Origin: Balanoglossus misakiensis | Lineage: Eukaryota; Animalia; Hemichordata | DNA: 64,000 bases | Assembly (NCBI GenBank): GCA_040954595.2 | Contig: CM082591.2 | Location: forward strand, 11,611,309-11,675,308 | Direction of reading: 5' to 3' | Shown: piece after piece, positions 1-42,454 of the stretch | Numbering within the stretch: the first letter of the stretch is position 1 | Layout of the letters: the number at the start of each line of letters is the position of its first letter | The notes under the pieces: generated by a model | Seen by the model: the letters and a program-made list of their open reading frames with translations, nothing else | The model's database searches: none | Told to the model about the DNA's origin: nothing | Made by a program: the position numbers and the translations under genes

Positions 1-111
1 TAACTGTACTGTAGTGTTATTAACACCAATGGACAGTCTCAAAAACTAGGCTGATCTGAATTTAAAATTTAAAAAAATCATCAATGGATTGCTGAAAATG
101 GCCTTTCATAT

Positions 112-400
112 GATCAAGACACCATTTATGTTATTCTACATGTGGATAGTGAATCAACGTTCGACCACACACAACTTCCATCCCACTTGTACACACAAGA
201 GTGAAAAACTTGTCAAAATGAATAATCAGTGTTTACCATTTATTCATTCTGTCGAGATTTTTACTCTCATATATATCCTCCAAGTTGTGTGTGGCCGAAC
301 GTTGATTCACTATATATCCAAATGTAGAATAACATAAATGGCGTCTTGTATCAAACATAATTAATAGAAAAAGGGCAGCAAAAGAGAGACTTTGTCCCTG
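112..400. mobile_element. Palindromic MITE remnant; same family at ~17990-18243
   Basis: Inverted arms ~112-180 and ~283-355; the right arm closely matches 18125-18240. Confidence 0.6.
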
Positions 401-1130
401 TAAGTATGTTGATACAAACATTTGCAACATATTAGTCAATAATTAGGTCTACGAACTTTCAATGTACATGTACTGCCAAGTGTACATGTTGTTATGAAAG
501 CTTGCCAACTGATTATGAACACGGACGTGTGGCAGGCGCCCAGATCTAGACGAGGTCTATGCATACGCGAGCAGAAAATCGCTCCCGCAGATTTTAATTT
601 GCGCAAGCGGAGCGATCACTCGCCTCAAAAGGTAAGGTCTGAATTACAGTGGAACACTGATTATCCGTACCTGTTGGGCGGGTTAGATTTTGTTCGGATA
701 ATTGATTTTTCGGATAATTGATTTTGGCACGTCCGAATAAAAGAAAATACTTTCAATGGCCTGCGAGCTGCAGATACCTGCGTAGTAGGTTACAATTTCG
801 AGTCAAAAATCCCCATATGATAGGTTAAAATGACATTGGGATGTGCACAAGGAGAGATACTGCAGCACTTGTCATGTACATCCACTTCTGGTTGCATATA
901 TATTCAATATGCATCTGGTTGTGTGCACAGGAAGGGAAAGTGAAAGAAACGATTGAAATGTTATTCCTATCATACACTGGAAGTTATACTTGGGTAACTT
1001 TCCTCTTCAAGGGGCATGTATGGCAGCGATGGGCCGCCATAAGCATGTACTTGTATAGTATAACGCTTTGTCTGCATGTGGCCTGGTGTCTGTTTATAGA
1101 CGTGACCAGATACACTGTGCACATCAGTCA

Positions 1131-1213
1131 TTAATCCTTTCACCCCCAGTTCCCTTTTAGAGGTCCAGCCTTACCATGGAAAATAATTGGTTTGGACTGA
1201 ACCATGGTGGTGA
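1131..1213. mobile_element. Short piggyBac-like MITE (~85 bp)
   Basis: Related copies at 4079-4158 (inverted) and 42363-42454; ends resemble TTAA-CCCTTTCACC. Confidence 0.6.
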
Positions 1214-1248
1214 TCAAATTGATCTGATCAAATTTTCCTCTGTTGTAG

Positions 1249-1389
1249 AATAATATGTGGGCGTCGTGTAAGAGTGGAATTGTCATCAGGAAAGACACGC
1301 CGTGGTCGTTATGGTAGACCGCCGCCGCCGCCAAGACGACCTTATTATGATGACAGAGACCGAGATCGTGACTATGATAAATACAGAAG
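1249..1389 (+). CDS. SRSF3: SRSF3-like SR protein, exon with the end of the RRM and the linker
   Basis: ttgtag|A ATA ATA TGT ... AG|gtatgt, phase 2/2, 141 nt. Translates IICGRRVRVELSSGKTRRGRYGRPPPPPRRPYYDDRDRDRDYDKYRR, resembling SRSF3/SRSF7 CGxRVRVELS. No zinc knuckle seen, so SRSF3-like. Upstream RRM exons are outside the window. Confidence 0.85.
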
Positions 1390-1480
1390 GTATGTTTACT
1401 ACTTGTAATTCATGTAATCTGCAGGACTGACCAAAGATTGCCATAATTAAATTTGCTGGAAGCATTTAGTATCAGTGGAA

Positions 1481-1618
1481 GTAGAGAGATGTTTTGATTG
1501 TCTAGAGTCGAGATGAGATTGCAAACAATATCTGCTCTAAAAGATTGCTGTCTTGCACATGCATTATTGTAATGAGTACAAATCTCAATATGGATATTTT
1601 AAAGACAGCAAAACATGC
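1481..1618 (+). ncRNA. Candidate intronic H/ACA snoRNA
   Basis: Hairpin tagagagatgtt/aatatctgctcta, H box AAAAGA 1539-1544, hairpin ttgctgtctt/aagacagcaa, ACA at 1613-1615; about 138 nt. Confidence 0.45.
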
Positions 1619-2014
1619 GCACACTACAAGGACGAGCGGCCACTGAATTGATCAGTTTAGAGTAACCAGTCTAGATTGAAGCATTCACCTTTATGTTCAC
1701 CTGATAACTGATTCCTTATCATGTTAGATTGTATCCTTCCCACAATTCCTTTCATGAAAATCTAATGACATATATGTAGCATAGTATAACAATTTATTGC
1801 TGATGAGGTGGTATGATTTTTCAACATGGCAAATTGAAATAGAATGGCTTCGTTTAGTAGTAACCATGTTGTGTAATATTATTTAGAAATTTGAGCACCC
1901 TATTTCCAAAATTGAGTACATCTGCCCTATAGGATTTTGTTTGATGATCATATTTGACATCATTTTGTATTTCTTTGGTGCTTACACAATAATAGATGTC
2001 CAATCCCGTACGTC

Positions 2015-2393
2015 ATGTACATACCAGTCTGATTAAGATCAGATGTAGAGTTTATAGATGCTACATGCTGTCTTTGGCTGTTCTGTTCTCGGTCCTTGTC
2101 TTGGCCACACTACATCTGAACTTATGCCACACAATATCTAATTTTGGCGAATGGATCCATTCGACCAATCACAGAGCGGTTTTCCTAATGGAAACTCGCT
2201 TTTATTGTTTAAGATCGCTTGTTTTTCCACACCTTCTGTTAAATCTTCTCTAATGACTGCGAAAGTGCGAGATGAAAACGAGATCTCCTGTGGCATAGGT
2301 TCAGATGTAGTGTGGGCGTCCCGTCCAAACAGATCAGCAAAGATAATGACAGCACCCAACACTATGTCTGATTTTAATCAGATTCATGTACAT
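2015..2393 (+). ncRNA. Long intronic structured RNA element
   Basis: Nested stems 2027-2052/2358-2383, 2066-2072/2348-2354 and 2105-2131/2289-2315; the deviations are almost all G.U pairs on the + strand. Confidence 0.6.
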
Positions 2394-2482
2394 ACCTACA
2401 TTGTTAATGTATCGCCAATGCTACCTTATGCAATCTCTTGTTAATCAAGTGTAAAATATATGAAATGAATGTTGGCAGATAT

Positions 2483-2627
2483 CTGGAGTGCAGAAAAAGT
2501 GTGCTCATGGTTTTCAACAAAACATCTTCAACTTCAGAAATGAAGAGAGAAAATTATAATGGTTTGAGCTTGGTACTGTGTGACCCCATTTATTTTTGCA
2601 AAAGCATGGTTTCAACCAATTACAATT
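2483..2627 (+). ncRNA. Second, weaker H/ACA-like candidate
   Basis: Stem ctggagt/acttcag, AAATGA H-like box 2538-2543, second imperfect hairpin, ACA at 2622-2624. Confidence 0.3.
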
Positions 2628-2790
2628 AAGGTGAAAGATATAAGAGATCTTGTGACGTCCATTGATAGAACAAGGAGAAAAGACATTTGATATGTGCCTT
2701 GCATGTGACAGAAGTGGTTAGGGTTGTTTTTCCTTTGTTTCTGTCATTTCTCTGGCATTATAATAATGATATGGGTGCACACCTTTTCAG

Positions 2791-3172
2791 GGACTAGCCC
2801 TCTCCAACAACTACTAGTACATCCAACCAACAAGTCTAGCTCATGCTGTACAACTTCGTTCAACATGAATCCAAAAATGTTCAACTCAACTTCGACCTTG
2901 GGCCCATCACCTTCACCTCCACCACTTCAGTGTTGTTCAACATCATGCAACATTTACGAGCATGCGTAAAGCGATTCTGCCAACAAGCCACGCCACGCCA
3001 CACCGCCACCACCACCACAACTACTACTACTCCAGCCCTCAACAACAACAACAACAACTACTGCCACCTTTTGATTTCTAGCAACACACCGCCAACGTCA
3101 ACCTTACCCATAAGTTGTAAGGTTGAACATTTCTACCCTGTAGCGATGAAATCTGCTATGTTTCTGAGGAAG
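2791..3172 (+). other. Candidate poison (premature stop) cassette exon of the SRSF3-like gene
   Basis: ccttttcag|G GAC TAG gives an in-frame stop at once; donor AG|gtagga at 3172/3173; rich in ACAAC/TCAAC/ACATC motifs; lies in the intron equivalent to the one holding the vertebrate SRSF3/SRSF7 poison exon. Confidence 0.6.
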
Positions 3173-3961
3173 GTAGGAGGCTTGATATAGCCACCAAAAT
3201 TCATTCCTGGTCAAGCTGGAACCTCGAGGCTTGGACAGACCCACTCATTTCAATTTCAACAGTTAGAACTTTAACTAAGTAGAAACACTATTTTTGACAA
3301 GTCCGCTTTCTAGCAGTGTGTTGGAACATCGTCCTGTTGTGGACAAAATTAACAGTTTCATGTTTTGATTGTGTCATGAAAGTTTCATAATTGGAGATAT
3401 TAAAGAAGAAAAGTTCGTTTTTTGCATTCAGACAGAAAAGCTTTAGCGTATGAAATCCCATTAAAAGAAGAAGTTAAAACTTTACATTCTCCTGAAATTG
3501 CTTATGCAAAAGCAAGATTTCAGTTGTTCAATGTTTTTGTGAGAAAAAACGAAAGAATGATAGGACTAGAATGTATCCGGTTTATTAAACAAAATAATGT
3601 ACATGTAGCTGCATGAATTTCATGATACAATCAAACCATAGGATGTTTGTTTTAGCTCAACATACAAGTGGATTGGCGGAATGACACATCATATTGCATG
3701 TGGTGGTAACTGGTGCCTTGTGTAATACTCTAAGAAGAAAATGCATTTTTAGATCAACTTTATCTATGTAGACAAATTCAAAACAATGAATTTTACTGGT
3801 GATTTTGTTTGGTCCTTCAAGTTCACAATTTAATAACATCAATATATTGGTTAGGTCATTTCTTCTCAAAGCAAACATGGTTGGAATATTACAATAACAA
3901 TGCAACTCTGAGATAAAGGTCTTTTTGCATCATCCCTATTAACATAATTGTTATTGAATAG

Positions 3962-4057
3962 GTCGCCAAGGTCGCGGTCACGTTCTCCAGTGCGGCGCAG
4001 ACCCAGGCGTAGTCGTAGTCCAAGAAGTCCAAGAAGTCGCAGCAGAAGTGGCAGCAG
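3962..4057 (+). CDS. SRSF3: SRSF3-like RS-domain exon
   Basis: gaatag|G TCG CCA ... AG|gtaaga, phase 2/2, 96 nt; SPRSRSRSPVRRRPRRSRSPRSPRSRSRSGSR. Confidence 0.85.
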
Positions 4058-4078
4058 GTAAGATACTAACCCTTTAAG

Positions 4079-4158
4079 TTTCACCACAATGGTTCAGTCC
4101 AAACCCAATGTTTTCTGTGGTAGGGTTGACCTCTATTGAGGGAACTGGGGTGAATTAA
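4079..4158. mobile_element. Short piggyBac-like MITE, inverted relative to 1131-1213
   Basis: Reverse complement aligns by eye with 1131-1213. Confidence 0.6.
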
Positions 4159-4324
4159 AGAGTCCCTATCTGTAACTTCTGGCTAAACTTTCAGGGTGTT
4201 TTTGTTTTGAGCATCAATTGTGGTTTCTTGGTATACTCATAGAAAATAAAGAATTGTTCACTATTTTTGTTTTGAAGACAGCAAATTGTTATTGTTGAAA
4301 GTTGAATTTGAGTCTGGACTGCTA

Positions 4325-5013
4325 CAGTGAAGCTTAGGAATAGCTTTCCGCCTGCACCAACACTGGGTCAACTCTGTTTAAACACTGGGTCAACTCTGGG
4401 TTAGCACCCTATTGGCGCTCTAATTAGCACCTATTGGGCTTGTGTTTAACTGGGGTGTACCAAAACAATAGGGTGCGCCAAGGTTTAACACTGAACAATG
4501 CCAAGTGCCAGGGCCAACAGATTCACACCTTTGTAACACTTGTGACACATGGGCTAACACTGTGTGCCAAAAAACAATAGGGTGCGCCAAGGTTTAACAC
4601 CTTTGTAGCACATGCTAACACTGAACAATGTCAAGTGCCAGGGCCAACAGATTCACACCTTTGTAACACTTGTGACACATGGGCTAACACTGTGTGCCAA
4701 AAAACAATAGGGTGCGCCAAGGTTTAACACCTTTGTAGCACATGCTAACACTGAACAATGTCAAGTGCCAGGGCCAACAGATTCACACCTTTGTAACACT
4801 TGTGACACATGGGCTAACACTGTGTGCCAAAAAACAATAGGGTGCGCCAAGGTTTAACACCTTTGTAGCACATGCTAACACTGAACAATGCTAAGTGCCA
4901 GGGCCAGCAGATTCACACCTTTGTAACACATGAGCTAACACTGTGCTGACGCATTATAAACACCATGTCAGCAAGTTGTTAGCAAATTGGAAAGCTATTC
5001 CTAAGCTTCGCTG
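4325..5013. mobile_element. Tc1/mariner-type MITE with internal 130-bp tandem repeats
   Basis: 25-bp TIRs CAGYGAAGCTTAGGAATAGCTTTCC, TA on both sides; repeat units start at 4561, 4691 and 4821. Confidence 0.85.
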
Positions 5014-9051: not shown

Positions 9052-9114
9052 GGGCCGTAGGTCTAATGATCGGAAGAGGTCGTACTCCCGTGAACGCAAA
9101 TCTCGTGAAAGGAG
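9052..9114 (+). CDS. SRSF3: SRSF3-like RS-domain exon
   Basis: tttcag|G GGC CGT ... AG|gtatgt, phase 2/2, 63 nt; GRRSNDRKRSYSRERKSRER. Confidence 0.75.
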
Positions 9115-12555: not shown

Positions 12556-12718
12556 ATGTTTTGGCAAAACCCAAAACTTTACACTTTAAACCCTTATAGA
12601 GCTGAATCGTCTAGTGTTACCATTGTCCATAGCAATAAGTGTACAGTGATACTTGAAAACATTTTTACAACTATGTTGTTTGACCATAATAGCAAATATG
12701 TCTTTTTTCTTCAAACAG

Positions 12719-12800
12719 CCATTCGCCAACACCAGAAGTTGAAGACAGTCGAAATAGTGATGGTTCTCCTGACAGAGATGTTTCTGGAGATGAAGATTAG
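12719..12800 (+). CDS. SRSF3: SRSF3-like terminal coding exon
   Basis: Strong pyrimidine tract then caaacag|C CAT TCG ...; phase-2 compatible; HSPTPEVEDSRNSDGSPDRDVSGDED*. Confidence 0.7.
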
Positions 12801-17235: not shown

Positions 17236-20018
17236 CTGGAATCAAAATAAAACAGGCACCATGTTATTATTCTCCCACTGTGTCACATACACAAAGATGA
17301 TACTATTTAAATTACTCTCCCATTGTCACAAATAAATATTGTTGGGAGCAGTTAAAGGGACAAAGTGGATCTCTTTTGACGTGGATTTTGTTCGATATGA
17401 AAAATTGTCTATGCTGTTTGACTTCTATACAACTATAAACATACTCCGTTCTGCTTGTAAACAGACTAGATTAAACATTGATAAAAGGTTTAAAGGTAGA
17501 AGTACACAGTGGAACACTTTTCTACAAAGATTCTATTGTTTGCCCTGCACTTTCCCGGGTCTCCCCTTTAAAGTCAGTAATCTAAACAATACTAGAAATA
17601 GATGGAATATTCTGAATGAATGAAATAAAAAGACTACATGTAGAATAATTTTTCTCATAATTTGTTCAGGATATCAACCTATTATTTGCAACAATGCTTC
17701 AATTAAAATCTTTTTACCTGTATGGTCCAAACCAGTCTGCTGTAAGTCGGTCACCTTTTCTGCTAAGTTTCCTCATATTCTTCTTCATTACTTCATCTCC
17801 AATTTCAAAGTTGAATGATTTCACTCCTTTAGACATCCTCTTCTTATATTGCTTCTTTTGTTTGTCTTGGGCCACTTTAATGTTCTCCAATACCTGTCAA
17901 AAAACAAAAACGGGGTGACACAAATTAATAAATTTGATTTATTGTGTCTGGCATGATACACCCAATATTATTTTCTTCTTGGTTGCTTTTAAAGGAACAA
18001 AGACTCTCACTCACTCTCCTTTTTTTTTCCATTTATTATGTTCGATACGAGACAACACTTATGTTAATGTACATGTGTATACATGTATGTAGTGAATGAC
18101 CGTTCTCATATCCTACAAACAGGATGGAAGTTGTGTGTGGTCGAATGTTGATTCACTATATATACACACGTAGTATAACATAAATGGTGTCTTGTATCAA
18201 ACATAATGAAAAGGGCAGCAAGAGAGAGACTTTGTCCCTTTCAAAAGCATGTCATGATTGCATACATCTTTATATTGAGAAAAGCAGTAGTCACTTGGTT
18301 TGATATATAAACCCAGTGGATAAGCTGTCAATAATTTTGATCACGATAGTTGGGTTTATATGGTTAGAGCCTGGAATAGGTATTGATGGAGATTTTCTTT
18401 TTTAAACATATATTTGCTTTGCATTTATATCCAGGTGAAAACTGAGTTTGCTACAATATGTTACCTTGCAAATGAGTCTTGTTCATAAGTACGTATGTGT
18501 GCCTTCATACATACAGTATCCATATACAATATAAGTTGTGGTCAAGATTAATGACCATTTTTCTCTCAGGTCAGTATTCTGTCAAACTTGTTCAAGGCGG
18601 GCATGCATGTACTAAATTTTGATGGTACCTTTTTGTGCACAGAGGTTATTCTCTGTGTAACTTCATCCATGTATGCCTTATGGTCCATATTGGTATTATC
18701 ATCTGCTACATAATTCTCGAGTGCGTCCTCCAAATCGTCCTCCACCATTAAAACCTTCAAAGTGAAAAAGGTACAAAAAAATTTCTCAATGTACCATGTT
18801 TATATTTCCAGCGTTGACTAAAATAAAAAATATATTATCATTTGCATTGTTGACAGATGAATTCTAGACTGAACCTGTTTTCAGTTTTCAACAGAAACAA
18901 TCAGACTTCCACTTCAATGGATACAATCTTGCACATTATAGACTAAACGAAATAAAACAAAGATATTTTCTGGTAATGAACTACTAACCTCACAAGGTAA
19001 TCTGGCTTTTCTACTATACATACATGTAAGTTGGAATGGGGTGTATTTTGTACTTTCTTGACGAACTGTTCTAATTCCGAAGAGACAGGCTGATATATAT
19101 TGGTCCCAATCATTCTGATGCTCATTGGTCAGCTTACTAATAGATCTCTTCACTGTTTGATTCATCCTCTCATCCAGTCCATTAGTTTGCGGGTGATAGG
19201 CTGCAGTAATCCGGTGTTCAGTCTTCATTATTTTACATACGTAATCGTTCACCTGTTTATACAAAATAAAAAGTGTGTAGAATCATTAACACCAATTTTA
19301 TCATTTCATTTATTTGGAGCAGAATATAATTACCAGGATAAACAGGAGAAAAATATTTGAGAAAATAGCCAAAAGGTTCTACTGGGGCTTTAAATGTTTT
19401 AAACATTGACAATCACAAACTTTATCAAATAGTCATATGATGATGAAATGACTGTATTTTTTTGTTGATAATTTGCCATGGTAACAGTGCCTAAACTTGC
19501 ATAGGTGACCATATACTTGTAAAAACGGTGAGTCAAAATGACCTTTTATAGTATCATAATGGGAAAATTACCTCATTTACAAATTCTCTTCCTTGGTCCG
19601 TCAGAATATGTTTAGCTGCTCCAAATCTGAAATAAATAAATGTACTGAATATATGTACTTCATAACACCTATATGTATGAGTACACCAGACAAATTAGCT
19701 ACACATGACTCATGGAAAAACTTTTGTTTATGTCCATAAAAACATGCGTTTACATCCAGCAGGTCAAAGCTCAACTAGACTTAACAGGTCTCCCGTACTG
19801 GGGCATCATGTCTGCCCCTACCATCCAAAAACGGAAAGTTCCCATAGGTTATGACAGTAGGTGTATAATAATACAATTTATGTACTGATTATTAGTCCAT
19901 TACATGGATTGGGCAACTTTTCCTGGAACAGAAGAGCTAAAATCCGATTAAAATTTGGACCAATAGAAAAAAACTGCCCTTTCTTATAGAATGTTTCACA
20001 CAGATGGTGTGCGACAGT

Positions 20019-35840: not shown

Positions 35841-38836
35841 CAACAACCCAACACACAAACAAGAATTCACAACTTACTACATTATCCCAACCCACATTTT
35901 AACTTATGCATGGTCAAGAAACAAAAACTAGTTTTCTTCAGCTAAGTGATCAAAACCCCTAGAGCAGCTGCCATATTTTACATTTTTTTATACGACTTTA
36001 CTTTCCAACTTAGATTGTTTGATTACTTATTAGCTTATTAGATTACTTTTTAGCTTACTGATAGGTATACATGAACATCTAATATCAACACCAGATTGTG
36101 GCTGTAGTGCAAATGCAAGTTTAAACAGATAAATAATTAATCTTGGTCGCAATGGGATATAGCCGCCACAGGGCCTGCAGTTATACTTTGCAGTCACGAT
36201 CTCGCACTTGCCATACAATGTAGTACGTCGTATTTTCTGCGGGAGTAATTTTGGCAACATTACTATACACCTATTTGTAATCGTTATATTTAATTATACA
36301 GGTAAATATTGGGATTATACCTGAGGCCAAAAAGAATATTGTGGTTTCGTTGTTTCGCAAAGTATAACTAGCCCCGCCACAGTGGGAAAAATGCAAAATA
36401 CAATGAAAACACATTTCCCACAATTAGGCCATTCACATTACTCAAAAAAGGCTAGGCCCTTGTCCTAGCAATGTACGTGGCCGAGCAAAAAACCCCAGAT
36501 GTGAACGGGTCTGGCCGACCCTTGTCCGGACAATTTTGGTCCCAGTCGAATGGGGTGGTCGACTCTGATCCGACTCTGGTCCCAGCCTGGTGTGTGTGGA
36601 CACGTTTTGTCCGGATCTGGTCCTGGTTGACACCTTTTACAATTGACATAAACAGTGCAGTCTATCATTTGACAAAACAACCAGAAGAGGACCAACATGG
36701 TTCTGCTTTATAAGGTCAAAGGTTGGCGAGACGACGTTGGCCAGGACAGTGCCAAAACAATGTGAACAGTAGCCCGGAGACCAGGGCGTCAGGGAAAAGA
36801 AACGCCCGGGGACAGTCTCTATTTACGAACAGAATTCTGTGCGCAGAACGACACGGGTGGTAAATCTTGTGTGTAAGCTAATTGGTCACTCAATGTAAAC
36901 CAAATGACATCATCGCATTCTAAATAAGGAAATAGAGGTGGAGTCATGTGTGAAATTCCCGCGACGGGATGTGGGAGTGGTTTTGAAGGTGTATGAATAT
37001 TCATAACCAAGCTATGTTAATTATATCATCCAACCACTGGCGCCCGTCAACATTTGATAGATCACTCGTTATCCATTCGTTACTAAGCGACCCTGATCGT
37101 TGCCAGGGCTACTATCTTTCAGCTCAGCAGGAAATTGCTCGACTGTCCCCGGCCGGGCGTTGTATTCTAGATCGACGCCTGGTCTCCGGGGACTAAAGAT
37201 TAGCTTATCTTGTCACAATCATCGGGATAAGTTTTGCCCGGCCATGGGCCTAGATGTGAACCTAGCATTTGAAACTTCATAAACAAAGCATTATCTCATC
37301 CACAAAAACAAAAAGTGTTATTATACTCCATGGAGACATATTTTCATTGCAATTTTTTTTTTAATTGTGGGAATTTTCAACTTTACTGATATTTATTTTT
37401 TGGCCATTCTGTCATAGATGTGTTATCTTGATTCTAAAGGATGGGGAGAAGATTTGAAGTATTTTATTGTGAAAAAAATATCTGAAATTTGGAAGTTCAT
37501 AGGGCTTTAGACAATCTAATTAAAGGGACATTAGCTGTAACTTTTGACTATTTTTTATTACTTGTGTTCTGTGTACTAACTCCAGTTTCCTATGCTTGCC
37601 CACACATAATGCTCAAGTTTCCAGTATTCTGATTGTCAACGTAGCCTACACATGTGAAATGATCATTGTTATTGTTGACAATTGAATTATAGTCCGGACT
37701 AGAATACAAACTTTCAACAATAACAATGCAGATTGTACTCATATAGGGCATGTTAATGAACAAAATACTGGGCATTTCATCATGGTTCAGGGATTCCAAC
37801 CAGAAACTGTAGTTGATACATAGAACAAACAAAATATAAAATGACCAAAAGATACAGCTATAAATGGATCTTTAAAATCAGAGTTAGGTGCGGTCTTTAG
37901 TTTAGCTGATTCTTTGCTGTTCTTTTCAAAAGGGGGCCCAGCGTGGCGTATACACTCGAGAACAGCCATTACAGAGAACAAAACAGCCAAAGCCGAGAGA
38001 ACTATCACCAGTGACCAGTGCCTAACTCTACATCAGACTTTAATCAGATTGGGCTTTAAATAGACATTGGCATCAGACACCCATGTCAATGTGTATTGTA
38101 GTGTTGAGAAAAACAATCCACAACCAGAATATAATAATAACAAATGTAAAATGCTTTATTTCTTAATACCAATGTCTGGAAAAGCTTTCACCATTTCTAA
38201 GAAGTGCATGGACTACATTACTTACTAGATGGCACCGAGTGTCCCAGTGTAGAAAGTATATGCTGCTGAATTAAGCAAATTTTCACTATGAAGTTTCAAA
38301 TTCGTTGCAACTACCATTTGAAATAAACAAACATTGTACACATAGATTGGAATCAATCTCATAATATGCACGATGAGTTGCGAATCTGCTGTGCATCTCA
38401 TTCAAACAAACTTCTGATCATGAGTTTGAAAAATAAGTACCACTGACATGGCTATCTACTGTCTAAAGTGTAAACTTAGCTTGTATGACACCTTGGCCAA
38501 GCTAAATGATTTCTGGTGGAGGTGTTGTTTAATTTACCATTTCACCCCCCGTTTCCCTCTTTAGATCCATAGAATCCAACTGTGTTGAAAGGGTTAAAAG
38601 ACATACTCACAGGGCGATATTAGACCAGTAGCATTCTTTTTGACTTGTAAATGATACCACTGGTAGTAGACTATTAAAATAATTACACATGTTAGCGAGG
38701 GCAATACATGTATCATGATATTGTTTGAGCAACAATGTTTTATTAATTGTATTACACCGAACATTTGAACAAACTGGTACATACAGCATAGAAGAACGTT
38801 TTCAGAGTTGCGTCTATGTCATACGTTGCAGTGAAC

Positions 38837-42162: not shown

Positions 42163-42454
42163 CTGCAAACAAACCAAAATATGGAACACTCGGTTAAAGG
42201 TATACAATCACCCTTTATTTACATATGCCCATATATGGTTAACTGGGCACATCTAATTGATCAAATGACCATTTTTCCATAATTTGAGACAAAAATATAT
42301 TTGAATAAGCGAAGCCATATTCTTTATTTCCATTACCATTAAGGTGGAGAACCACTGAAATTTTTACCCTTTCACCACCATGGTTCAGTCCAAACCTATT
42401 GTTTTCTATGGCAAGGTTGGACCTCTAAAGAGAGAACTGGGGTGAAAGGCTTAA

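What the first reader, a model, noticed from the sequence alone, without database searches (positions are those of the whole stretch)
1131..4158. Possible multi-part RNA regulatory cassette in one SRSF3-like intron
Seen: intron 1390-3961 has no transposon I can recognise, while the next two introns are mostly transposon. It carries, in order, an H/ACA-like fold, a ~380-nt hairpin, a second H/ACA-like fold and a stop-containing cassette exon. Known: SR genes autoregulate through conserved poison exons and intron retention. Inference: these parts may act together, linking structured-RNA processing to the NMD decision.
Basis: partly seen in the sequence, partly recalled or inferred. Interest (0 to 1): 0.8.

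Follow-up and report, generated by a model that had tools for sequence, protein, structure and literature searches.

The report
Acorn-worm SRSF3 poison exon, plus passengers
This intron of a splicing-factor gene, likely from an acorn worm, holds a stop-codon "poison" exon that is also found in another acorn worm and likely lets the protein limit its own production as in mammals; the long hairpin beside it is likely an inserted mini-transposon, one nearby fold is a possible guide for ribosomal-RNA modification, and nothing found here suggests these parts act together.

Summary
The gene is an SRSF3/7-family SR protein of a hemichordate-like animal (exons 78-89% identical to Ptychodera flava protein). 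The four parts are not one device. (1) The cassette (2791 to 3116 or 3172) looks real: TAG at its second codon, the highest CA-motif density of 392 tiles, and a collinear match with frame-breaking indels to a P. flava gene model that uses the same acceptor (score 239, null at most 24). This is the known SRSF3/7 poison-exon arrangement. (2) The hairpin (2026-2383) is likely a foldback/MITE insertion: 13-bp flanking direct repeat, second family member at 37867-38050. So 'no transposon' is wrong. (3) H/ACA fold 1 (1482-1618) is a fair snoRNA candidate (about 55%): its 3' pocket pairs 13-14 bp with one large-subunit rRNA site in three eukaryotes (1 of 300 guide shuffles). That site is pseudouridine in budding yeast but not in human. 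(4) H/ACA fold 2 is background. No cross-pairing between parts was found. No RNA data or genome was available.

The parts
1249..1389 (+). Coding exon: end of the RRM and linker of an SRSF3/7-family protein, no zinc knuckle; phase 2 at both ends
   Evidence: 86% to P. flava P0001 over 50 aa; AG and GT ends; no CX2CX4HX4C in six frames
1482..1618 (+). Candidate box H/ACA snoRNA: H box 1539-1544, ACA 1613-1615; 3' pocket predicted to target the U after CUUUAAA in large-subunit rRNA
   Evidence: two-hairpin fold, z -1.34; 7-bp lower stem and 7+7 pocket; target tests; no Rfam match
2013..2025 (.). Left copy of a 13-bp direct repeat (likely target-site duplication)
   Evidence: the 13-mer occurs only twice in the window
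2026..2383 (.).
2384..2396 (.). Right copy of the 13-bp direct repeat
2463..2627 (+). Second H/ACA-like fold: judged chance
   Evidence: z 0.19 for 2478-2627; long unpaired hinge; best target scores 8.5 and 10.0, ordinary among 122 background hairpins
2791..3116 (+). Poison cassette exon core, C/A-rich and G-poor, TAG at 2795-2797; ends at donor 3117 (GTAAGG) or extends to 3172
3098..3126 (+). Perfect 10-bp stem-loop covering the candidate donor at 3117; significance modest
   Evidence: z -3.1; 1 of 100 shuffled introns has one, but the window has 10 such stems; pairing at this donor is not exceptional among five donors
3117..3172 (+). Possible 3' extension of the cassette to the alternative donor at 3173 (GTAGGA)
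   Evidence: higher rough donor score, 4.61 against 0.76; P. flava similarity not detectable here
3962..4057 (+). Coding exon: first RS-domain exon
   Evidence: 89% to P0001 over 37 aa
1131..1213 (+). Copy of a dispersed 80-bp repeat, 35 nt before exon 1249; inverted relative to the copy at 4081-4157
   Evidence: third copy at 42372-42454
4081..4157 (-). Copy of the same 80-bp repeat, 23 nt after exon 4057
37867..38050 (-). Second, shorter member of the foldback family; decayed 12-bp flanking repeat (8 of 12 match, counted by eye)

Best explanation
The intron holds a stop-containing, CA-rich cassette conserved with Ptychodera flava that likely works as the SRSF3/7 poison exon, and the other folds are likely independent passengers. 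Mechanism: when the SR protein is abundant it would bind the clustered C(A/U)(A/U)C motifs of the cassette and promote use of its weak splice sites (inferred from mouse SRSF3). Inclusion puts TAG at 2795-2797 (shown in the sequence), 319 or 375 nt before the cassette's end, so the message would be degraded by NMD and the RS domain never made (inferred). The 358-bp hairpin is likely a non-autonomous DNA transposon that landed about 400 nt upstream of the acceptor and is removed with the intron. The fold at 1482-1618 is possibly an intronic H/ACA snoRNA (about 55%). It would be released from the lariat whether or not the cassette is included, so it would use the host's transcription without steering the decision.
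For: Cassette: 33 CWWC motifs in 326 nt, 0 of 392 tiles as high (maximum 20); C 36%, G 11%. P. flava model P0002 (XP_070568996.1) aligns collinearly from window 2789 to about 3121, score 238.6 against 14.7-23.7 for 25 control tiles; 167 of 179 fully determined columns are identical and 14 of 17 gaps are not multiples of three, which points to non-coding constraint. That model joins the exon-3 end to the cassette's first bases. Unnamed animal contigs show stop-containing C/A-rich inserts at the same junction: L054 (rejoins the RS exon), L058, L026, L016, and L067, whose spliced partner L065 is identical for 398 nt up to the junction. Mouse SRSF3 binds CU-rich, G-free motifs and promotes its own and SRSF7's poison exon (PMC3439968, passages). 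Hairpin: 13-bp flush direct repeat (15 of 4000 random zone pairs reach 13); both arms match both ends of a second element (0 of 150 shuffles each). Independence.
Against: No RNA evidence for this species. P0002 is a predicted model with an open, shifted frame and may be a second copy or an annotation artefact; its transcript support was not seen. The gap-tolerant aligner and low complexity inflate the 93% figure. The cassette's donor is unresolved (3117 or 3173). A search with the cassette-derived peptide found no third species. My rough acceptor score for 2790 is weak (0.19), though the true acceptor at 3961 scored lower (-4.53), so that matrix is poor. Only two copies of the foldback were seen, and a 12-13 bp duplication is longer than the 8-10 bp reported for Mutator/foldback Tm1 (PMC3169594). 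Conservation of the rest of the intron could not be measured.
Confidence: 0.75

Rival explanations
1. Coupled switch (a narrowed form of the first reader's idea): an H/ACA snoRNA in the upstream half-intron and the stem over donor 3117 take part in choosing between skipping, inclusion and retention, as SNORD86 does in NOP56 and SNORD2 in EIF4A2.
For: Fold 1 passes a target test; a 10-bp stem covers the donor where P. flava similarity ends; the precedent exists (PMC10324135, passages); the best of 18 cross-pairings is fold 1 with the cassette acceptor region (1 of 30 shuffles).
Against: One hit at 1 of 30 among 18 tests is what chance gives. Fold 1 lies 1172 nt from the acceptor, whereas SNORD2 pairs with adjacent intron. 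Donor 3117 is no more paired than ordinary donors (0.70 against 0.51-0.75). The hairpin is likely a transposon and fold 2 is background.
Confidence: 0.08
2. Only the poison exon is functional; fold 1 is also a chance H/ACA look-alike.
For: z only -1.34; folds of this type occur about every 2 kb; 2 of 122 background hairpins reach the same target score; the 5' pocket has no significant target (13 of 40 shuffles); the site is unmodified in the human map and in S. pombe and only weakly called in Drosophila; a first, stricter geometry missed the match; no Rfam family.
Against: Symmetric 7+7 pocket at the right distance from ACA; the same site scores best in three divergent large-subunit sequences, 0 of 300 guide shuffles do so; the site is a guided pseudouridine in S. 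cerevisiae (snR44).
Confidence: 0.42
3. The cassette is a coding alternative exon, or part of a Split-ORF arrangement, and not a decay trigger.
For: The P. flava model P0002 is annotated as a 334-aa protein with an open frame through the homologous sequence.
Against: In the window the native frame stops at the second codon. 14 of 17 gaps against the P0002 frame break the frame. In the frame continuous with the RS exon there is a stop near the cassette end and no ATG after it, for both donors. No other protein carries the segment.
Confidence: 0.04
4. The long hairpin is a selected RNA structure (for example a small-RNA precursor or editing substrate), whether or not it began as a transposon.
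For: Very stable fold (z -12.8); it sits in an otherwise repeat-poor intron; the arms are only 71% alike, yet pair well through G-U.
Against: Flanking duplication and a second family member explain it without selection; no Rfam match; no pairing with splice sites.
Confidence: 0.08

Closest known systems
SRSF3 poison exon 4 and SRSF7 poison cassette exon of mammals (PMC10321290, PMC3439968, PMC5737842; passages read)
   Same: Stop-containing cassette in the intron between the RRM/linker exon and the first RS exon; C-rich, G-poor composition; conserved though non-coding; similar size (326-382 nt against 456 nt)
   Different: Invertebrate deuterostome; indel-tolerant, not ultraconserved; flanking intron carries a transposon-like insertion and a snoRNA candidate. 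Sequence homology to the vertebrate exon was not tested, and the codon-level match of the intron position is recalled.
Ancient unproductive splicing of SRSF5 (Lareau and Brenner 2015, PMC4379411; part 1 of 5 and passages read) and C. elegans rsp-6 (PMC2265522, passages)
   Same: Unproductive SR-gene splicing kept at a homologous position in invertebrates; the rsp-6 PTC isoform rises in NMD mutants
   Different: That study covers SRSF4/5/6, not SRSF3/7. That rsp-6 and Drosophila Rbp1 are the SRSF3/7 counterparts with autoregulation is recalled, not from a call.
Intronic box H/ACA snoRNAs; S. cerevisiae snR44 (PMC5062969, supplement file 2 rows read)
   Same: Hairpin-H-hairpin-ACA layout; predicted target is the same large-subunit uridine that snR44 guides (25S 1054 in that table)
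   Different: No sequence or Rfam similarity shown; one pocket only; the site is unmodified in human and S. pombe maps; no expression evidence.
Mutator/Foldback MITE-like elements, e.g. Tm1-ML (PMC3169594, passages)
   Same: Under 0.5 kb, long imperfect inverted arms, flanking direct repeat, copies with shared ends and different interiors
   Different: Duplication 12-13 bp against 8-10 bp; no autonomous partner identified; superfamily unassigned.
snoRNA-controlled host splicing: SNORD2-EIF4A2 and SNORD86-NOP56 (PMC10324135, passages)
   Same: An intronic snoRNA upstream of an NMD-related alternative exon
   Different: Those are C/D snoRNAs that pair with adjacent intron or overlap splice sites; here the candidate is H/ACA, 1.2 kb away, with no pairing above shuffles.

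Membership tests
SR-protein poison cassette exon (SRSF3/7 type) | Host is an SRSF3/7-family gene | tested here: met
   Top hits are P. flava and Glandiceps SRSF3/7-like proteins; no tree was built, so SRSF3 against SRSF7 rests on the absent zinc knuckle
SR-protein poison cassette exon (SRSF3/7 type) | In-frame stop well upstream of a later exon junction | tested here: met
   TAG 2795-2797, 319 or 375 nt before the cassette end
SR-protein poison cassette exon (SRSF3/7 type) | Non-coding sequence conservation | tested here: met
   One other species, through a back-translated gene model
SR-protein poison cassette exon (SRSF3/7 type) | Enrichment for the host protein's binding motifs | tested here: met
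   the CNYC/CWWC motif form is recalled, and 'CU-rich excluding Gs' is from PMC3439968
SR-protein poison cassette exon (SRSF3/7 type) | Spliced in, with both junctions defined | tested here: inconclusive
   Acceptor shared with the P. flava model; donor 3117 or 3173 unresolved; no reads for this species
SR-protein poison cassette exon (SRSF3/7 type) | NMD sensitivity and feedback by the host protein | not testable with these tools
   needs experiments
Box H/ACA snoRNA (fold 1, 1482-1618) | Hairpin-ANANNA-hairpin-ACA layout, in an intron, sense strand | tested here: met
   common by chance
Box H/ACA snoRNA (fold 1, 1482-1618) | Pocket 14-16 nt from the box with bipartite complementarity to rRNA or snRNA | tested here: met
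   3' pocket only, 15 nt from ACA; non-hemichordate rRNAs. snRNAs were not tested
Box H/ACA snoRNA (fold 1, 1482-1618) | Target uridine is modified | tested here: inconclusive
   yes in S. cerevisiae, no in S. pombe and human, weak call in Drosophila; unknown in hemichordates
Box H/ACA snoRNA (fold 1, 1482-1618) | Stable processed RNA; conservation | not testable with these tools
   no reads or orthologous DNA; no Rfam hit; no convincing pattern match in L001-L080
Box H/ACA snoRNA (fold 2, 2463-2627) | Compact two-hairpin fold with a guide pocket and a target | tested here: not met
Non-autonomous DNA transposon (MITE/foldback) | Terminal inverted repeats | tested here: met
Non-autonomous DNA transposon (MITE/foldback) | Target-site duplication | tested here: met
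   13-bp exact flush repeat
Non-autonomous DNA transposon (MITE/foldback) | Dispersed copies | tested here: inconclusive
   one further diverged copy in 64 kb; no genome held
Mutator/Foldback superfamily | 8-10 bp duplication and a matching transposase | tested here: not met
   duplication is 12-13 bp; no transposase linked; not filed under this superfamily
snoRNA-directed cis-regulation of host splicing | Stable pairing of the snoRNA with a branch point or splice-site region | tested here: not met
   (in silico only)
SRSF7-type Split-ORF | Start codon in the cassette in frame with the RS exon | tested here: not met
   for the two spliced-cassette forms; retained-intron forms not tested; the defining paper was not held, so the feature is recalled

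The most novel reading that the evidence does not exclude
An acorn-worm SRSF3 gene doubles as a snoRNA host with a coupled switch: SRSF3 bound along the CA-rich cassette opens the stem that hides donor 3117, and assembly of an H/ACA snoRNP in the upstream half-intron biases excision against retention. SR-protein dosage and a ribosomal pseudouridine lost in mammals would then be set by one splicing decision.
Probability: 0.07. Interest if true: 0.7.

Novelty: new member of a known kind. Interest (0 to 1): 0.3.

Why it matters
The mechanism is known. The added value is phylogenetic: a same-position, sequence-conserved poison cassette in hemichordates, plus similar inserts in other invertebrates, suggests the SRSF3/7 feedback exon predates vertebrates. 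Searches listed no paper showing this for invertebrate deuterostomes; the library lacks most subscription papers. An indel-tolerant version could show which features of the ultraconserved mammalian exon really matter. The snoRNA candidate, if real, is a new guide for a site modified in budding yeast but not in human.

Tried and rejected
No whole genome was held, so copy numbers could not be counted. No RNA holder was listed; this is no evidence either way, and no reads were laid. Rfam found nothing at gathering level in the window and only sub-threshold, unrelated matches in 1100-4300 and 1460-1640. A search with P0002 residues 112-250 returned only P0002 among 1213 candidates. The metagenome scan kept 80 of 183 confirmed loci, mostly short transcript-like contigs; none matched the intron beyond low-complexity CA runs. 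A first snoRNA target test with strict upper-stem geometry missed the 3' pocket and gave nothing notable. My recalled mapping of the predicted targets to human pseudouridines was wrong and was corrected from the supplements: the 3'-pocket site is 4 nt from the human modified U, and the 5'-pocket best site is unmodified. PMC5824354 and PMC6984369 had nothing on snR44 or this site. The review supplement lists species but no letters for vertebrate exon 4, so homology to the vertebrate exon was not tested. The last 19 cassette-derived residues of P0002 could not be placed in the intron (scores 11.6 and 13.9, null 11.2-20.5). An alternative zinc-knuckle exon was looked for and not found. The flanking 80-bp inverted pair was considered as a selected helix, but the two copies are less alike (83%) than either is to a third copy (87-89%). 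Sequence and place look-ups of earlier findings were empty.
Full report
Gene. The window holds the 3' part of an SR-protein gene on the + strand: exons 1249-1389, 3962-4057, 9052-9114 and about 12717-12800, matching Ptychodera flava XP_070552588.1 (P0001) at 86, 89, 87 and 78%. The nearest proteins are from P. flava, Glandiceps talaboti and Saccoglossus kowalevskii, so the source is likely an acorn worm other than P. flava. The first RRM exon lies outside the window and no zinc knuckle is encoded, which makes it SRSF3-like; NCBI names for the relatives are split between SRSF3-like and SRSF7-like and I built no tree. Intron 1390-3961 separates the RRM/linker exon from the first RS exon. In mammals the poison exons of SRSF3 and SRSF7 lie in the conserved third intron (PMC5737842, passages; PMC10321290, passages). 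That the position matches codon for codon is my recall.

Cassette. After the AG at 2789-2790 the reading frame gives Arg-Asp-stop (TAG 2795-2797). The next 326 nt are 36% C and 11% G and hold 33 CWWC and 21 CAAC motifs; 0 of 392 equal-sized tiles of both strands reach either count, and 1 of 392 reaches its 27 CNYC. A second P. flava model, XP_070568996.1 (P0002), contains a translation of the homologous DNA between the same two exons. Back-translated, it aligns from window 2789 to about 3121 with score 238.6 against 14.7-23.7 in 25 control tiles. 167 of 179 determined columns are identical, similar to the coding exons (90-100%), but with 17 gaps of which 14 break the frame. The aligner's cheap gaps and the low complexity inflate identity, but the pattern indicates non-coding constraint. 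P0002 reads the end of the upstream exon in a shifted frame and continues directly into the cassette's first codons, so its acceptor is the same. It is a prediction, possibly of a second copy, and I did not see its transcript support. The donor is open: similarity ends at GTAAG 3117-3121, but 3173 scores better (4.61 against 0.76) and P0002 has 19 further residues I could not place.

Other animals. Of 183 confirmed metagenome loci 80 were kept; 76 had a recognisable RRM end and 13 of these had 4 or fewer RS dipeptides in frame. Of the 13, two are cut by contig ends, five are genomic, two (L049, L051) I did not examine, and four (L026, L054, L058, L067) are transcript-like with a stop-containing C/A-rich insert at this junction; L016 is a fifth case. 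L067 and L065 are identical for 398 nt up to the junction, where L065 enters the RS exon. L054 rejoins the RS exon after the insert and shares the insert with L058 (71% over 859 nt). These organisms are unidentified. The inserts show no detectable homology to the window's cassette beyond low-complexity runs.

Hairpin. The fold is real (-142 kcal/mol, z -12.8). An exact 13-bp direct repeat abuts both ends (2013-2025 and 2384-2396), and the 13-mer occurs nowhere else in the window; 15 of 4000 random zone pairs share 13 nt. Both arms match the two ends of a shorter foldback at 37867-38050 (scores 52 and 49, 0 of 150 shuffles each), which has a decayed 12-bp flanking repeat (8 of 12). Shared ends, different interior and a flanking duplication are the signature of a non-autonomous DNA transposon. 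The duplication is longer than the 8-10 bp of Mutator/foldback Tm1 (PMC3169594, passages), so I leave the superfamily open. Only two copies could be seen.

H/ACA folds. My scan found one fold on each side of the hairpin. Such folds are common: 37 on the + strand and 27 on the - strand; 41 of 100 shuffled introns give two or more, and 2 of 100 give one as stable as fold 1 with a pocket. Fold 2 has z 0.19 and ordinary target scores and is rejected. Fold 1 has z -1.34 and no Rfam match, but its 3' hairpin opens into a 7-bp lower stem and a 7+7 pocket 15 nt from ACA. The pocket pairs 13-14 bp around one uridine of large-subunit rRNA in all three sequences held (L107, L109, L120; non-hemichordate): 0 of 40 hairpin shuffles, 2 of 122 background hairpins, and 1 of 300 guide shuffles for best score and 0 of 300 for all three. 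Four hairpins were tested, and a stricter first geometry missed the match. The uridine is pseudouridylated in S. cerevisiae under snR44 and listed 'no PTM' for S. pombe (PMC5062969, supplement file 2 rows; file 1 could not be searched). It is unmodified in the human map (PMC6182160, supplement passages; file cut when stored). It is a weak call in Drosophila: termination ratio 0.03-0.07 against 0.31-0.52 at the known site 4 nt upstream, in a study with 288 calls on 28S (PMC9997552, passages and rows). With the animal-type sequence the pairing needs a one-base bulge. The 5' pocket has no significant target (13 of 40 shuffles). I put fold 1 at about 55%.

Do the parts act together? Precedents exist (SNORD2-EIF4A2, SNORD86-NOP56; PMC10324135, passages). 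Here 18 pairings of the three folds with six splice-related regions gave at best 1 of 30 shuffles. Outside the hairpin the intron is no more structured than its neighbours (0 of 34 windows with z < -2 against 6 of 72). The one local structure tied to the cassette is a perfect 10-bp stem over donor 3117 (z -3.1; 1 of 100 shuffled introns). The window has 10 such stems, and that donor's pairing (0.70) is within the range of four other donors (0.51-0.75). It belongs to a dispersed repeat with a third copy at 42372-42454, and the pair are less alike than either is to the third. It could favour back-splicing or in-frame skipping of 237 nt; this is untested.

Mechanism and verdict. Shown: the exon layout, the early stop, the motif density, conservation with one other species, and the duplication-flanked hairpin with a relative. 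Inferred from mouse work (PMC3439968, passages; reviews PMC7764535 and PMC6884704, passages): the protein binds the cassette, promotes inclusion and triggers NMD. Human cell work shows loss of the exon raises SRSF3 protein 2- to 3.5-fold (PMC13228269, passages). The finding is a new member of a known kind with unrelated neighbours. Deep conservation of unproductive splicing is documented for SRSF5 (PMC4379411, part 1 of 5 and passages), and a PTC cassette isoform of C. elegans rsp-6 rises in NMD mutants (PMC2265522, passages). Searches listed no paper on a hemichordate SRSF3/7 poison exon, within a library that lacks most subscription papers. Interest 0.3.

Noticed in passing
window 1131-1213 and 4081-4157 (third copy 42372-42454): Two copies of an 80-bp dispersed repeat in inverted orientation hug the two coding exons (35 and 23 nt away; duplex -113 kcal/mol). 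The layout could favour a 237-nt circle or in-frame double skipping; no sign of selection for pairing.
   Followed up: partly
window 3098-3126: Perfect 10-bp stem-loop covering the candidate donor GTAAGG, where similarity to P. flava ends.
   Followed up: partly
window 3350-3650: A second, weaker foldback (22-nt arms 3360-3381 and 3618-3639; z -2.4) in the downstream half-intron; no flanking duplication seen by eye.
   Followed up: partly
window 3040-3081: A CAA run followed by a short pyrimidine stretch and AG at 3081 is a possible internal acceptor; L054 and L026 have a similar CAA-run-then-AG arrangement in their inserts.
   Followed up: no
window 111-353 and 18114-18239: Another foldback element with a partial copy 18 kb away.
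   Followed up: no
window 4486-4929: Tandem array of 3.4 copies of a 130-bp unit, 98% alike, in the next intron.
   Followed up: no
P0002 (XP_070568996.1): The P. flava 334-aa 'SRSF7-like' model looks like a frame-shifted reading through the poison cassette, so it is likely a second copy or mis-annotation, not a real long protein.
   Followed up: partly
L042:2580-3300: A genomic SRSF3-like locus of an unidentified AT-rich animal has CAA/CAG-rich patches in the same intron.
   Followed up: no
L081-L125: 45 contigs in named bacterial assemblies carry a eukaryotic 18S rDNA motif; three checked with Rfam are eukaryotic rRNA units, one with two group I introns. Likely assembly contamination.
   Followed up: partly
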